Below, one piece after another: positions 1,293 to 10,373 of a stretch of DNA of 16,229 nt. The position numbers and the translations under genes are program-made. Source of the stretch: a virus. Its lineage: Duplodnaviria > Heunggongvirae > Uroviricota > Caudoviricetes. The stretch covers positions 72,207 to 88,435 of the IMG/VR virus record IMGVR_UViG_3300028800_000066; one strand, 5' to 3'. Within the stretch, counting starts at the first letter, position 1. Each line of letters begins with the position of its first letter. The notes under the pieces were generated by a model, which did not search any database, had not been told where the DNA came from, and worked only from the letters and a program-made list of their open reading frames with translations.

Positions 1293-1432
1293 AATCTTGA
1301 ACAAGTGTTGATATCCGATATGCCTTGCGGCTCCGCTGTTCTACCGTTGAACTAAACCTTCCGAGGAAGGCTAGAGGAATTGAACCTCTATTCGCAGATT
1401 GATAGATAACGAATTATCCTCGGCCCAAGATT
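1293..1432 (-). ncRNA. YrlA-type Y RNA (Ro-binding stem plus permuted tRNA-like domain)
   Basis: AATCTTGGGCCGAGG pairs with ACTTGTTCAAGATT; inside T arm TAGAGG-TTCAATT-CCTCTA, loop-closed acceptor GCCTTCC-TC-GGAAGGT, D arm GTTC-AACGGTA-GAAC. Confidence 0.8.
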
Positions 1433-1438
1433 AATTTT

Positions 1439-1587
1439 AAAATTTGAACAAGTGTTGACATTCGGTATGCCTTTCGGCTACTCCTGCCTCGACCAGTTGG
1501 GCTACCTCTCCGTGTTAGTGGAGAGGGTAGGACTCGAACCTACATCTTAGAGTTGTAAGATAACGAATTATCTTCGGCTCAAATTTT
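1439..1587 (-). ncRNA. YrlA-type Y RNA
   Basis: AAAATTTGAGCCGAAG / ACTTGTTCAAATTTT; T arm GTAGG-TTCGAGT-CCTAC, acceptor CCTCTCC-8nt-GGAGAGG, D arm GCC-CAACTGGTCGA-GGC. Confidence 0.8.
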
Positions 1588-2080
1588 GATGTTGCTTCCT
1601 ACCAGCAAATGTAGTGGTTTGACTATGACAGTTTGGGCAAAGTATTTCTAGATTTTCTATTCTATTGTCTCTACCATTACCATTCTTATGTTCAAGCTGT
1701 AATGATATTGGTTCGTTTTGCCAAACATTTCCAAGCCCACATTTTCTACATTCATTCTTTAAAATTTTTTCTCTTATTAATCTTTTTTTAAGATGCGTTC
1801 TGGAATATCCACTATCTTGAGTTAAAACTTCTTCAAGAGTTTTTGGAGTTATTCCACCACGTAAGTTAAAACGATTGCTATTTCTACCTTGAGGAATATG
1901 ACTGTAATCTATTCCCGATTTATCTAAAACTTGTTTTAGAGTTGCATTATTTCTACCATATTTCACAAAACCAAAATGAATTAAAATTTGTGAAATTGAA
2001 GTTGCTTTAGAAACATAATCTTTTAATTCTTGTTTATCTATCAACCAAAGTTTACTCGTTTTCTTTCTTTCCTTTATCAT
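1568..2080 (-). CDS. HNH endonuclease (putative homing endonuclease)
   Basis: CRKCG...LQLEHKNGNGRDNRIENLEILCPNCHSQT motif. Confidence 0.9.
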   Translation of the reverse strand: MIKERKKTSKLWLIDKQELKDYVSKATSISQILIHFGFVKYGRNNATLKQVLDKSGIDYSHIPQGRNSNRFNLRGGITPKTLEEVLTQDSGYSRTHLKKRLIREKILKNECRKCGLGNVWQNEPISLQLEHKNGNGRDNRIENLEILCPNCHSQTTTFAGRKQHQNLSRR

Positions 2081-4490: not shown

Positions 4491-4562
4491 TGCAACCTAC
4501 AGGAATTGAACCTGTTGCCTCTTCGATGTCAACGAAGCGTTCTACCAATGAACTAAGGTTGC
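4491..4562 (-). tRNA. tRNA-Val(GAC)
   Basis: GCAACCT/AGGTTGC, CTTCG-TTGACAT-CGAAG. Confidence 0.93.
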
Positions 4563-4903
4563 GTTCTTTTATAATCGTCTTGAATTCTTATTATATCTTC
4601 TTCAAGACATACACCAAATTGAACTTCCAAAATTACTAAATCAGTTTTCTTACTCGTGTTCACTATTCTGTGAATCAATTCTTTTGGAACGTATACTACA
4701 ACACCTTTTTTCAATGGATGTTCAATCCCCGCTTCATCCAATATTGCTTTTCCTCGTCCTTTTAAAACATACCAAATTTCTGTTCGTTGCAAATGCTTTT
4801 GTAAACTCAATCTTTGCCTTGGTTTTACTACCAACTTTTTAGTCTTTGAATCGTTTGTTGCGACTAAAGTTTCAAAATAACCCCAAGGTCTATTTTCTAT
4901 CAT
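4553..4903 (-). CDS. Cupin protein, mannose-6-phosphate isomerase type II C-terminal-like
   Basis: ENRPWGYFETL...KKLVVKPRQRLSLQKH..RTEIW...HRIVN...VILEVQFG..LEEDIIRIQDDY. Confidence 0.88.
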   Translation of the reverse strand: MIENRPWGYFETLVATNDSKTKKLVVKPRQRLSLQKHLQRTEIWYVLKGRGKAILDEAGIEHPLKKGVVVYVPKELIHRIVNTSKKTDLVILEVQFGVCLEEDIIRIQDDYKRTQP

Positions 4904-4917
4904 GACATTCTCTTTTG

Positions 4918-5011
4918 TGGAGTGTTGGGGGGTCGAACCCCTGCGAACCGATAACGTTTACTCTTCGGCCTTTTGTAAGGCAAGTGTTGAATACCCGCTT
5001 GCACACACCCA
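4918..5011 (-). ncRNA. Circularly permuted Y RNA / tRNA hybrid
   Basis: Open acceptor TGGGTGT/ACACTCC-A and GGGG-TTCGACC-CCCC T arm; Y motifs in swapped order CAACACTTGCCTT-ACAA-AAGGCCGAAG...CGTTATC. Confidence 0.62.
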
Positions 5012-5015
5012 TATT

Positions 5016-5201
5016 TTAAACATCTTCTAACTGACTTTTTATTTCTTTCTTAACTTGTTCTTTTACATAACCTCTATCTTTAACAGCAGGCTCTTGACAG
5101 CTATCCATCGCACACCACTCATAAGCCCTTTTATCTAACTTAGTTCCATAAGGCAGATGTTTCAAATTTCTGTGATTATGAGTTTTTATTTTCTTCGCCA
5201 T
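5016..5201 (-). CDS. Hypothetical basic protein (61 aa, MAKKIKTH...)
   Basis: Internal ATG of track ORF 5016..5300 avoids a long overlap with the upstream gene. Confidence 0.55.
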   Translation of the reverse strand: MAKKIKTHNHRNLKHLPYGTKLDKRAYEWCAMDSCQEPAVKDRGYVKEQVKKEIKSQLEDV

Positions 5202-5445
5202 CAGTATCAAACCTGTCCTTCTGTTCGTGTTTTTGTTCTTGCATTGTTTTCTCGCCCCACTTTCTAGGACTAGAACACAATCCGCAATTTGCACGACCAC
5301 AATCTAAAGGATGCTTCTTTTTAAATCTGTTACGCTGGTCAGTCTTCATTCCATGCGCCTTGGCAACCTTTACCCTTTTATTTATAACAGCTTTGTTCTT
5401 TTCGATTCTCTTAGATTTTTTAGCTTTTTCTTCGAGTTTCGACAT
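5176..5445 (-). CDS. Hypothetical basic Cys-containing phage protein (89 aa)
   Basis: MSKLEEK... after GGGAG; HPLDCGRANCGLCSSPRK motif. Confidence 0.7.
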   Translation of the reverse strand: MSKLEEKAKKSKRIEKNKAVINKRVKVAKAHGMKTDQRNRFKKKHPLDCGRANCGLCSSPRKWGEKTMQEQKHEQKDRFDTDGEENKNS

Positions 5446-5633
5446 CACACATTCTCCCATTCACCCCAACCCCAACAAGTACTTCTGGTTACTTCTTCAT
5501 GATTGTCTTCATAATAACCAGAATCCCAATCGGCGTCGAAAGCATCGAATCTAGTATGACTTTTGTTGAATGTTGCAATTCTTCCATTTTCTGTATTCAA
5601 CATTCTATAGTTAACATCTTTAGTTTGTATCAC
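5445..5633 (-). CDS. Hypothetical protein (62 aa)
   Basis: GTG after GAGGA; stop coupled to next ATG. Confidence 0.6.
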   Translation of the reverse strand: MIQTKDVNYRMLNTENGRIATFNKSHTRFDAFDADWDSGYYEDNHEEVTRSTCWGWGEWENV

Positions 5634-5963: not shown

Positions 5964-6035
5964 TAGCCCCTACTGGAATCGAACCAGTTTCTTCTTTCTT
6001 GTAAGGAAAGCAGTCTACCATTGGCGTAAGGGGCT
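5964..6035 (-). tRNA. tRNA-Val(TAC), weak D stem
   Basis: AGCCCCT/AGGGGCT, CTTTC-CTTACAA-GAAAG. Confidence 0.8.
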
Positions 6036-7041: not shown

Positions 7042-7159
7042 TGGGCTGTGGTGGACTCGAACCACCGAAGGCCGAAGCCGTCTGATTTATTTTGAAGTTT
7101 TCAGATTCGAACTGAATAACTTCCACAGTCAGATGCCATTGCCGCTAGGCGAACAACCC
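7042..7159 (-). tRNA. tRNA-Tyr(GTA) with 36-nt intron at 7089-7124
   Basis: GGGTTGT/ACAGCCC, Tyr-type D and variable arms; removing the insert restores TCTGA-CTGTAAA-TCAGA. Confidence 0.85.
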
Positions 7160-9672: not shown

Positions 9673-9810
9673 TTTTTGAGCAAGTAGCGACATTCGATAT
9701 GCCTTGCGGCTCCGCTGTTCTACCGTTGAACTAAACCTCCCGAGGAAGGCTAGAGGAATTGAACCTCTATTCGCAGATTTAATGATAACGAATTATCATC
9801 GGCTCAAAAA
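9673..9810 (-). ncRNA. YrlA-type Y RNA, near-identical to 1293-1432
   Basis: TTTTTGAGCCGATG / ACTTGCTCAAAAA; 9695-9779 matches 1316-1400 at 84 of 85 nt by manual comparison. Confidence 0.8.
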
Positions 9811-9818
9811 ACTTTTAT

Positions 9819-9931
9819 AATCGAACAAGTAGTGTCTTTGCGAGGCCCCACTTTCGGGCGACTTTCGTTCCACCTTGCGGCTTCACAATCGTCTTCTGTA
9901 TGATAGATAACGCATCAACTTCGGCTCGATT
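9819..9931 (-). ncRNA. Y RNA-like element with tetraloop hairpins, no tRNA domain
   Basis: AATCGAGCCGAAG / ACTTGTTCGATT, CGTTATC motif, GCAA and GAAA loops. Confidence 0.7.
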
Positions 9932-9948
9932 AAACTTTTGTTTGAAGA

Positions 9949-10216
9949 TTCAAATTAAGCAAGTATTGTGCTCTGGAACGCTTGGATACGTTGTTCTGTT
10001 TTCCTTACGTGGACATTTACCTCTCGGTGGAAACATTGTCATTGTTTCCTTGACATTTACCAGTGGCGGTGGAATTGCCAGTCCACACTTAAACTTAGCA
10101 GAGGTGAAGTAACTTCGGGCTTCTAAGAAATATCCTTTAGTCTCACTTGCGGCAAGGTCGTTACCCCTTGCTCTCAACCAGAGTATGATAACCAGTCCCA
10201 CTTCGGCTTATTTGAA
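9949..10216 (-). ncRNA. Giant (268 nt) Y RNA-like element
   Basis: TTCAAATAAGCCGAAG / ACTTGCTTAATTTGAA, GGTTATC motif, large multi-stem interior. Confidence 0.65.
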
Positions 10217-10256: not shown

Positions 10257-10338
10257 AAGCTAGGCAAGTATCGTAATTCGGTATGCCTTGCGGCGTTCAT
10301 GAATGATATGAGATAACGAATCCACATCGGCCTAACTT
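10257..10338 (-). ncRNA. Short Y RNA-like element (82 nt)
   Basis: AAGTTAGGCCGATG / ACTTGCCTAGCTT, TTCGTTATCT, GCC-GCAA-GGC hairpin. Confidence 0.72.
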
Positions 10339-10344
10339 GAATAC

Positions 10345-10373
10345 ATTATATCACATTGCTCTTGATAAATCAA
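10345..10373 (-). promoter_or_regulatory. sigma70-type promoter for the Y RNA-like array
   Basis: TTGATT-17-TATAAT with TGn; start site would fall at the first element. Confidence 0.75.

What the first reader, a model, noticed from the sequence alone, without database searches (positions are those of the whole stretch)
4918..5011. Circularly permuted Y RNA: a tRNA-ended molecule with the Ro helix in place of the anticodon arm
The two Ro-helix strands occur in reverse order (CAACACTTGCCTT first, then AAGGCCGAAG...CGTTATC), joined by an ACAA loop, and the adjoining stem CGGGTATTC/GAGTAAACG is kept. The free ends form a tRNA acceptor stem with A73 and a T arm. This is the inverse of YrlA: it could be processed by RNase P/RNase Z, receive CCA and perhaps be aminoacylated while binding Ro60. 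The apex reads CTTACAA, identical to the Val(TAC) loop at 5964, and it lies among the Val tRNAs. I do not know of a described Y RNA with this topology.
Basis: partly seen in the sequence, partly recalled or inferred. Interest (0 to 1): 0.8.

Follow-up and report, generated by a model that had tools for sequence, protein, structure and literature searches.

The report
tRNA-ended Y RNA for phage Ro60
A soil phage that makes its own Ro60 (an RNA-surveillance protein) encodes a conserved 94-base RNA with the ends of an alanine tRNA and, where the anticodon arm should be, the hairpin-closed docking helix for Ro60; I found this strand order in no paper I could search, yet it turns up in many Ro60-carrying phages and bacteria.

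Summary
On the minus strand (5011 to 4918) the two Ro60-helix strands lie in swapped order (AACACUUGCCUU, loop, AAGGCCGAAG), followed by the stem and GUUAUC motif that nine normal-order Y-like RNAs in the same window also carry. The ends pair as an acceptor stem next to a T arm.

It is neither chance nor debris. Two metagenomic phage fragments (L205, L209) hold the same element at the same position after tRNA-Ala. They are 91-94% identical, with changes only in loops plus one compensatory acceptor pair.

The topology is a class. I collected 56 distinct tRNA-order Y RNAs from phages and bacteria. Every sufficiently complete record tested has a Ro60 (TROVE) gene.

- This copy has no D arm.
- It has a U1.C72 mismatch; the orthologues have G1-C72.
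- The apex "Val anticodon loop" is not conserved and is coincidence.
- Its neighbour and its acceptor type are alanine (G3.U70, A73), not valine.

Ro60 binding, end processing and charging are inferred, not shown. This scan already reported the same class on other DNA. My three paper searches and the five papers I read did not describe it.

The parts
5005..5011 (-). Acceptor stem, 5' strand (U1 G2 G3 G4 U5 G6 U7). The orthologues read GGGGUAU.
   Evidence: Pairs with 4919-4925. Pair 6:67 is G-C here and A-U in L205 and L209, a compensatory change. Pair 1:72 is U.C here and G-C in the orthologues.
4998..5003 (-). Stem 3, 5' strand (UGCAAG). It stands where a tRNA anticodon stem would start. G5004 is the only linker, so there is no D arm.
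   Evidence: Pairs with 4942-4947 in both the MFE and the Y-type fold. Invariant in the 3 orthologues. Only 19 nt lie between the acceptor strand and ACUUG, against 33-53 nt in members that have a D arm.
4989..4997 (-). Stem 2, strand of the 3' type (CGGGUAUUC).
   Evidence: Pairs with 4955-4963 in 7 of 9 positions. It sits in the same place as the stem next to the Ro helix in the nine normal-order paralogues and as the covarying 8-bp stem of the class.
4978..4988 (-). Internal loop AACAC plus the Ro-helix strand of the 3' type (UUGCCU).
   Evidence: CAACACUUG is identical to the paralogues at 1293-1440 and 1439-1600. ACUUG is invariant across the class alignment.
4972..4977 (-). Apex loop that closes the Ro helix (UACAAA; ACAA if U35-A40 pairs).
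   Evidence: This is the most variable part among the orthologues. The loops of other class members are unrelated: GCAA, UCC, GAGA, ACCCCC, GUCA.
4963..4971 (-). Ro-helix strand of the 5' type, AGGCCGAAG. It contains GCCGAAG (the GNCGAAN0-1G motif of bacterial Y RNAs) and the bulged C.
   Evidence: locate the motif. Chen et al. 2014 define it (PMC4201824). Invariant in the orthologues.
4955..4963 (-). Stem 2, strand of the 5' type (GAGUAAACG).
   Evidence: Same position relative to CCGAAG as in the paralogues.
4948..4954 (-). Conserved unpaired motif UUAUCGG (the GUUAUC box).
   Evidence: GTTAYC follows the helix in 7 Y-like RNAs of this window. TTATC is nearly invariant across the class.
4942..4947 (-). 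Stem 3, 3' strand (UUCGCA).
4927..4941 (-). T arm: GGGG, loop UUCGACC, CCCC.
   Evidence: L205 has the loop UUCAACU with the stem unchanged. Only loop positions 57 (G/A) and 60 (C/U) vary, which fits a 7-nt T loop and excludes the MFE's 3-nt loop.
4919..4925 (-). Acceptor stem, 3' strand (ACACUCC).
   Evidence: The 3' end CUCCA|CA matches that of the phage's own tRNA-Ala.
4918..4918 (-). Discriminator A73. CCA is not encoded.
   Evidence: A followed by C, as at the 3' ends of most tRNAs of this window. Invariant in the orthologues.

Best explanation
The element is a non-decoding, tRNA-ended Y RNA, about 93-94 nt long. It has the strand order of a tRNA: acceptor 5' strand, long arm, T arm, acceptor 3' strand.

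The long arm replaces both the D arm and the anticodon arm. It carries, closed by a loop, the bulged helix with GCCGAAG/ACUUG that bacterial and animal Y RNAs use to bind Ro60, together with the family's stem 2 and GUUAUC box.

**Likely working (inferred).**
- It is transcribed with the tRNA array.
- Its acceptor/T minihelix lets the tRNA end-processing enzymes (RNase P, 3' trimming, CCA-adding enzyme) cut it out.
- The arm docks the phage's Ro60.
- The result is a Ro60 particle that displays a tRNA top half.

**Acceptor type.** The acceptor is alanine-type: G2-C71, G3.U70, G4-C69 and A73, plus G1-C72 in the orthologues. Charging by AlaRS, as happens for tmRNA, is therefore possible.

**Likely origin.** Permutation of a normal-order Y RNA through a tandem duplicate. 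The 3'-strand then 5'-strand order already exists at every junction of the tandem Y RNA genes in this window.
For: **Shown.**
- Motif order and pairing.
- A Ro60/TROVE gene lies 13 kb away on the same contig.
- The element fills the 112-nt gap between two ORFs.
- Orthologues L205 and L209 are 91-94% identical. They keep the gene order Val(UAC) x2 - Ala - element - Val(GAC) - Ser(GCU), while the ORFs in between differ.
- 7 of 10 variable columns fall in loops (hypergeometric P = 0.04). Two of the other three are the compensatory pair 6:67.
- The short ORFs across the element are not kept in frame.
- The class exists: RNAalifold on six members gives acceptor, D, stem 2 and T helices, with compensatory changes in 16 of 24 pairs.
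- 56 distinct elements have perfect 7-bp acceptor stems that the search patterns did not specify.
- TROVE genes are present in 3 of 3, 3 of 5 (the two without are 4% and 27% complete fragments) and 12 of 12 records tested.
- Both Ro60 relatives of this phage have such an RNA just upstream of Ro60.

**Precedent.** M. smegmatis YrlA is cut by RNase P and receives CCA in vivo (PMC4201824).

**Established knowledge.**
- G3.U70 minihelices and tmRNA are substrates of AlaRS.
Against: - There is no transcript, end-mapping, binding or charging datum.
- With only three orthologues the covariation has no statistical weight: 160 of 500 shuffles reach it.
- The stems of the arm are invariant, so they are not tested.
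- The MFE pairs the middle of the arm differently, and the Y-type fold costs about 10 kcal/mol more. The z-score is -0.8.
- The class model R1 gives this copy only 14.9 bits, below ordinary tRNAs.
- This copy has U1.C72, no D arm, and a T stem of only 4 pairs. Each of these could weaken recognition by tRNA enzymes.
- The contig fragment shows no CCA-adding enzyme or RtcB.
Confidence: 0.72

Rival explanations
1. It is a dead remnant: the junction of two tandem normal-order Y RNA genes after deletions, with no function of its own.
For: The order 3'-strand then 5'-strand arises at every tandem junction (window 1418-1453, 9797-9830, 9919-9964; L109). Complementarity of the two strands would follow from descent. 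This copy lacks a D arm and has a 1:72 mismatch. The fold is not unusually stable.
Against: - It is kept at 91-94% identity in two other phage fragments, while the neighbouring ORFs come and go.
- Changes fall in loops or are compensatory.
- The new ends pair as a 7-bp stem stacked on the T arm in the orthologues.
- The same closed design recurs in many lineages, with covarying acceptor stems.
Confidence: 0.07
2. It is mainly a processing signal: a tRNA-like minihelix that lets RNase P/Z cut the long transcript between the upstream ORF and the cupin ORF. The Y motif would be inherited baggage.
For: It sits exactly between two ORFs, 4 nt after one stop codon and 14 nt before the next start. tRNAs commonly punctuate phage transcripts.
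Against: In L205 and L209 the flanking ORFs are different or absent, yet the whole arm, including GCCGAAG, ACUUG and GUUAUC, is invariant. A bare minihelix would not need a 60-nt arm.
Confidence: 0.08
3. It is a decoding tRNA (Ala or Val) that carries an insertion or intron, which is removed to give a normal tRNA.
For: Some class members pass the Rfam tRNA threshold with a 58-63-nt insertion. The apex 7-mer equals a Val anticodon loop.
Against: Removing the arm leaves no D arm and no anticodon stem. The apex is not conserved and is not closed as a 7-nt loop. ARAGORN and the Rfam tRNA model find nothing here.
Confidence: 0.03
4. It is an alanine-accepting tmRNA-like or other tRNA-mimic RNA that works without Ro60.
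For: It has G3.U70 and A73, a T arm, no D arm, and a long helix in place of the anticodon arm, as in the tRNA-like domain of tmRNA. There is a weak tmRNA T-arm hit (8.8 bits).
Against: It has no tag reading frame or pseudoknots, and it is only 94 nt long. The arm is the Y RNA module shared with nine paralogues beside a Ro60 gene. The class co-occurs with TROVE in every sufficiently complete record tested.
Confidence: 0.05

Closest known systems
YrlA (Y RNA-like A; Rfam RF02553; Chen et al. 2014, PMC4201824; Wang et al. 2018, 10.1101/312249)
   Same: Both have the GNCGAAN0-1G motif in a bulged helix, a T arm with a canonical T loop, and a Ro60/TROVE gene in the same genome. The window also holds nine normal-order relatives that share stem 2 and the GUUAUC box.
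   Different: The strand order is the circular permutation. In YrlA the Ro helix is formed by the 5' and 3' ends and the acceptor stem is closed by a loop. Here the Ro helix is closed by a loop and the acceptor stem holds the ends. This copy has no D arm, gets no RF02553 hit, and lies 13 kb from Ro60 rather than within 4 kb.
[quoted passage not shown] 2014)
   Same: A Y RNA whose acceptor stem is open and carries a tRNA-like 3' end. It shows that tRNA end-processing enzymes accept Y RNAs.
   Different: That RNA becomes two pieces, because the Ro helix is also open. Here a single chain is encoded in tRNA order.
tRNA-order Y RNAs found here (L104, L113 A-C, L144, L160, L085, L086, the L115 group, and bacterial loci L211-L235) and in earlier notes of this scan
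   Same: Same topology, ACUUG / CCGANG helix, GUUAYC box, T arm and co-occurrence with TROVE. D-arm-less forms also exist (the L115 group and the L185 family).
   Different: Most have a full D arm and a histidine-type end (G-1 with C73). This subfamily is D-arm-less and alanine-type.
tRNA-like domain of tmRNA
   Same: Alanine-type acceptor with G3.U70 and A73, a T arm, no regular D arm, and a long helix where the anticodon arm would be.
   Different: No mRNA-like part or pseudoknots, and no evidence for SmpB. The Rfam tmRNA models do not match (8.8 bits against thresholds of 47-84).
Animal Y RNAs (Rfam RF00019)
   Same: The helix has a bulged C. GGCCGAAG / CACUUGCC here compares with GGUCCGAAG / CACUUGACC in my recollection of human Y1 (from memory, not checked against a record).
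   Different: Animal Y RNAs pair their own 5' and 3' ends and have no tRNA-like part.

Membership tests
Bacterial/phage Y RNA (YrlA family, RF02553) | GNCGAAN0-1G motif on one strand of a bulged helix | tested here: met
   GCCGAAG lies at 4963-4969(-). It sits opposite ACUUGC, with C45 bulged.
Bacterial/phage Y RNA (YrlA family, RF02553) | The Ro-binding helix is formed by the 5' and 3' ends of the RNA | tested here: not met
   The strands are 12 nt apart and closed by a loop. The order is 3'-type then 5'-type, and the orthologues keep it.
Bacterial/phage Y RNA (YrlA family, RF02553) | tRNA-like domain with a T arm, a D arm and a loop-closed acceptor stem | tested here: not met
   The T arm is present, the D arm is absent, and the acceptor stem is open-ended.
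Bacterial/phage Y RNA (YrlA family, RF02553) | Score at or above the Rfam gathering threshold (69 bits) | tested here: not met
   No RF02553 hit on the element even at E<=10. The normal-order paralogues reach only 20-24 bits.
Bacterial/phage Y RNA (YrlA family, RF02553) | Encoded in a genome with Ro60 (Chen et al. required a distance within 4 kb) | tested here: inconclusive
   A TROVE gene lies on the same contig about 13 kb away. That meets co-occurrence but not the 4-kb rule.
Bacterial/phage Y RNA (YrlA family, RF02553) | Binds Ro60/Rsr | not testable with these tools
   Needs EMSA or pull-down.
tRNA-order (permuted) Y RNA class, as defined here | Order: acceptor 5' strand, ACUUG strand, loop, CCGANG strand, GUUAYC, T arm, acceptor 3' strand | tested here: met
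   Orthologues.
tRNA-order (permuted) Y RNA class, as defined here | 7-bp acceptor stem stacked on the T arm | tested here: met
   6 of 7 pairs here and 7 of 7 in L205 and L209, with a compensatory change at 6:67.
tRNA-order (permuted) Y RNA class, as defined here | Significant score with class model R1 (built from six members that have a D arm) | tested here: inconclusive
   14.9 bits, E = 0.076 on the window. Ordinary tRNAs score higher because the model is dominated by tRNA features. The D-arm-less L115 element scores 27.8 bits.
tRNA (RF00005 / ARAGORN) | Cloverleaf with a D arm and an anticodon arm; model score at or above 29 bits | tested here: not met
   No call by ARAGORN and no RF00005 hit at E<=10.
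AlaRS substrates (tRNA-Ala, tmRNA, alanine minihelices) | G3.U70 with A73 (plus G1-C72, G2-C71, G4-C69) | tested here: met
   All are present in L205 and L209. This copy has them all except G1, where U1.C72 stands. Actual charging was not tested.

The most novel reading that the evidence does not exclude
tRNA-order Y RNAs may be chargeable. Their acceptor ends keep the identity marks of the synthetases that largely ignore the anticodon: 31 of 56 have G-1 with C73, as in tRNA-His, and 4 of 56, including this subfamily, have G3.U70 with A73, as in tRNA-Ala. If so, this phage RNA would be alanylated like tmRNA while holding Ro60. It would then link Ro60 to EF-Tu or the ribosome, or make the particle sense charging status, during infection by a phage that brings 64 tRNAs.
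Probability: 0.2. Interest if true: 0.9.

Novelty: new variant of a known kind. Interest (0 to 1): 0.7.

Why it matters
Y RNAs are the obligatory partners of Ro60, but the job of their tRNA-like part is unknown. In all described bacterial Y RNAs the acceptor stem is a closed loop, so charging was thought not to be a general feature.

A widespread gene form with free, tRNA-like ends changes that. Processing, CCA addition and aminoacylation become directly testable.

It may also account for Y RNAs that earlier searches missed. [quoted passage not shown] Those are groups in which I found the tRNA-order form, always with a TROVE gene.

This element is a compact member of 94 nt with no D arm and an alanine-type end. 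That makes it a convenient minimal substrate for such tests.

Tried and rejected
- **First IMG/VR pattern** (AACACTTGYY..RRCCGARGA): 73 hits, all apparently chance matches in coding DNA.
- **Flanking proteins:** cupin homologues lie in unrelated, tRNA-free loci. The 229-aa and 61-aa neighbours have no relatives in IMG/VR.
- **blastn of the region against GenBank phages:** no match.
- **Ro60 relatives G001 and G002:** no copy of this element and no CCGANG..GTTAYC family. They do carry tRNA-order Y RNAs of another subtype next to Ro60.
- **Rfam:** nothing on the element.
- **Class model R1:** not discriminating, because ordinary tRNAs outscore the candidate.
- **Thermodynamics:** gives no support for the Y-type arm.
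- **Promoter and terminator scan:** nothing specific near the element.
- **Covariation on three orthologues:** one compensatory pair, not significant.
- **CCA-adding enzyme and RtcB:** neither found on the 52%-complete contig, which is uninformative.
- **Valine reading of the apex:** rejected on the orthologues.
- **Coding reading:** rejected, because the short ORFs across the element start in different frames in the window and L209 and have no matching start in L205.
- **Sim et al. 2020 review (PMC10870794):** could not be read.

Full report
**Setting.** The window is the last 16.2 kb of an 88-kb IMG/VR phage contig, estimated 52% complete. All its genes run on the minus strand. ARAGORN finds 23 tRNAs. 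A 567-aa Ro60/TROVE gene lies about 13 kb from the finding on the same strand.

The window also holds nine Y RNA-like genes in the normal order, at about 1293, 1439, 4017, 4164, 9548, 9673, 9819, 9949 and 10257. Each starts with ..GCCGA(A/G/U)G or GCCGCUG and ends with ..ACUUGYUC... Most have T and D arms in between. I re-read them myself.

**The observation.** On the minus strand, 5011 to 4918 reads U GGGUGU G UGCAAG CGGGUAUUC AACAC UUGCCU UACAAA AGGCCGA A GAGUAAACG UUAUCGG UUCGCA GGGG UUCGACC CCCC A ACACUCC A. The helix strand that ends a normal Y RNA (CAACACUUGCC) comes first. The strand that begins one (GGCCGAAG, then stem 2, then CGUUAUC) comes second, after a short loop.
- The 5'-type module CCGANG-N6-12-GTTAYC occurs seven times on this strand of the contig, all in the window. 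The reversed-pattern control gives zero.
- The 10-mer UCAACACUUG is shared with the paralogues at 1293-1440 and 1439-1600.
- Stem 2 (CGGGUAUUC/GAGUAAACG, 7 of 9 pairs) sits exactly where the paralogues have theirs. It differs from them by double changes: U.G becomes G.U and A-U becomes U-A.

The motifs are therefore homologous to the window's Y RNAs, and the swapped order is real.

**The ends.** The element fills the 112-nt gap between the stop codon of ORF 5016-5300 and the start codon of a cupin ORF at 4553-4903.
- In the register set by a canonical 7-nt T loop (UUCGACC; stem GGGG/CCCC), the acceptor stem is U1.C72, G2-C71, G3.U70, G4-C69, U5-A68, G6-C67, U7-A66, with A73.
- There is one nucleotide (G8) before the next helix, so no D arm exists.
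- ARAGORN, the Rfam tRNA model and the Rfam YrlA model do not see the element.
- The MFE is no better than shuffles (z = -0.8).
- The MFE keeps the acceptor stem, the T hairpin and the apical hairpin but pairs the middle of the arm differently. The Y-type arm costs about 10 kcal/mol more. I prefer the Y-type arm on homology alone, and I mark that as inference.

**Orthologues.** Searches through flanking proteins, GenBank phages and the Ro60 relatives found no copy. A metagenome scan found two. Its pattern specified only the closed helix, the GUUAYC box and GGTTCRA.
- The two are L205 452-546 and L209 1527-1621. They are 91% and 94% identical to the window element.
- They sit in the same gene order, tRNA-Val(UAC) x2, tRNA-Ala, element, tRNA-Val(GAC), tRNA-Ser(GCU).
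- The ORFs between these RNA genes differ. The cupin ORF is only in the window, and in L205 the element follows tRNA-Ala after 13 nt.
- The element is as well kept as the tRNAs around it (68-96%).
- Ten alignment columns vary. Four are in the apex, one is in the AACAC internal loop, and two are T-loop positions 57 (G/A) and 60 (C/U). One is position 1. The remaining two are pair 6:67, which is G-C in the window and A-U in both orthologues.
- Seven of ten variable columns lie in unpaired columns (P = 0.04).
- With three sequences the formal covariation test has no power: 160 of 500 shuffles reach it.
- The L205 T loop (UUCAACU) rules out the MFE's 3-nt loop and supports the T-loop register.
- The short ORFs across the element are not kept in frame.

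In the orthologues the acceptor stem is perfect: GGGGUAU/AUACUCC plus A73. The window's U1 is probably derived.

**What the orthologues refute.** The apex reads CUUACAA in the window, CUCACAA in L205 and CUUAUAU in L209. Its identity with the tRNA-Val anticodon loop is therefore coincidence. It could not form a 7-nt loop closed by a pair in any case.

The conserved neighbour is tRNA-Ala. The acceptor carries the alanine marks G1-C72, G2-C71, G3.U70, G4-C69 and A73. Its 3' end CUCCA|CA equals that of the phage's tRNA-Ala.

**The topology is a class.** Two IMG/VR scans, the metagenome scan and one scan of bacterial genomes returned many elements with the same order. Most of them have a complete D arm.
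- Examples are L104 3507-3629, three in tandem in L113 (1089-1208, 1216-1341, 1348-1474), L144 215-345 and L160 10346-10468(-).
- L104 and L113C pass the Rfam tRNA threshold with a 58-63-nt insertion in place of the anticodon arm.
- RNAalifold on six members recovers the acceptor (7 bp), D (4), stem 2 (8) and T (5) helices. 16 of 24 pairs show compensatory changes, including every acceptor pair.
- The acceptor 3' strand pairs with the strand upstream of its own D arm, not with the next unit. These are therefore tRNA-framed units, not misread tandem YrlAs. L109 shows what a real tandem YrlA junction looks like.
- A script that derives the frame from the T loop found 56 distinct elements with 7 of 7 acceptor pairs, a feature the patterns did not specify. 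The chance of such a stem per element is about 0.07.
- D-arm-less forms like the window's also exist: the L115 group, the L185 family and the Nostoc GGCGGGU type.
- TROVE genes were present in 3 of 3, in 3 of 5 (the two misses are 4% and 27% complete fragments of the same lineage as a positive record) and in 12 of 12 bacterial genomes. The control genomes gave 2 of 14.
- The two phages whose Ro60 is closest to this phage's (47-48% identity) carry a tRNA-order Y RNA directly upstream of Ro60 (L085 9819-9953, L086 9272-9392).

**Mechanism.** The shown facts are sequence, order, conservation and co-occurrence with Ro60.

The inferences, with rough odds, are these.
- The RNA is cut from the tRNA-array transcript at the acceptor ends and receives CCA (0.6). 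The basis is that acceptor/T minihelices suffice for RNase P and the CCA enzyme, that M. smegmatis YrlA is processed this way, and that U precedes G at the 5' end and A|CA stands at the 3' end as in this phage's tRNAs.
- The arm binds the phage Ro60 (0.65-0.7).
- It is charged with alanine (0.2-0.25).

Origin by tandem duplication and truncation of a normal-order Y RNA is plausible, because every tandem junction in the window already has the swapped order.

**Literature.**
- Chen et al. 2014 do not mention permuted forms. They discarded hits overlapping tandem tRNAs and found few YrlAs in cyanobacteria and delta-proteobacteria.
- Wang et al. 2018 call YrlA a circularly permuted tRNA and only speculate that some might be processed towards tRNA form.
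- The 2025 phage phiLo Ro60 paper describes Y-like RNAs with 5'-3' stems.
- Three full-text searches found no description of the tRNA-order form. The library is incomplete, and the 2020 review could not be read.

Earlier notes of this scan report the same class on other DNA. They agree with what I found independently, and I do not count them as evidence.

**Verdict.** This is a real, conserved, non-coding RNA. It is a D-arm-less, alanine-type member of an apparently undescribed tRNA-order variant of YrlA Y RNAs. Its valine link and its picture of a full tRNA are not.

Noticed in passing
window 7042-7159 (-): A 118-nt tRNA-like gene that the Rfam tRNA model calls (39.9 bits) but ARAGORN does not. 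It has a ~45-nt insertion in the anticodon region, and the insertion contains its own T-arm-like hairpin (UCAGUUCGAAUCUGA). There is no Ro motif.
   Followed up: partly
L104, L113, L144, L182-L198, L210, L217-L226 and others (table): Of 56 distinct tRNA-order Y RNAs, 31 have G at -1 and C73, the mark of tRNA-His. Four have G3.U70 with A73, the alanine type (L205, L209, L216 Longimicrobium, L221 Gemmatimonadales). Four encode CCA. The sampling is biased by the search patterns and by relatedness.
   Followed up: partly
L211-L235 (bacterial genome contigs): tRNA-order Y RNAs occur in chromosomes of Nostoc, Anabaena, Scytonema, Tolypothrix, Sphaerospermopsis, Sorangium, Gemmatimonadota, Chloroflexi, Planctomycetota, Armatimonadota and Abditibacteriaceae. 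All 12 genomes tested have a TROVE gene.
   Followed up: partly
L085 9819-9953 and L086 9272-9392: In the two phages with the closest Ro60, a tRNA-order Y RNA lies directly upstream of the Ro60 gene. The L085 helix reads ACUAGCUCU / AGAGCCGACAG. The L086 helix reads CUUGACC / GGUCGAAUGG, without a bulged C.
   Followed up: partly
window 1293-1600, 9673-9955, 10257-10345 (-): Several normal-order Y-like RNAs share a small hairpin, GCC-GCAA-GGC (GAAA in one), just 5' of stem 2, opposite the GUUAUC box. The candidate keeps only UGCAAG there, possibly a vestige of it.
   Followed up: no
L209 1351-1392: A tandem partial duplicate of the 3' half of tRNA-Ala lies directly after the complete tRNA-Ala gene.
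   Followed up: no
L113 1489-1560: After three tandem tRNA-order Y RNAs comes a Ro helix (CAGCACUUGCUC ... GAGCCGAAG) that is closed by a longer hairpin rather than a short loop. It is followed by GGGUUAUC.
   Followed up: no
window 4553-4903 and 5016-5633 (-): The small ORFs between the RNA genes differ among the three related phage fragments. They include a cupin-like protein with 45-50% identical relatives in unrelated viral contigs. The RNA genes keep their order, so these ORFs look like mobile cargo.
   Followed up: partly
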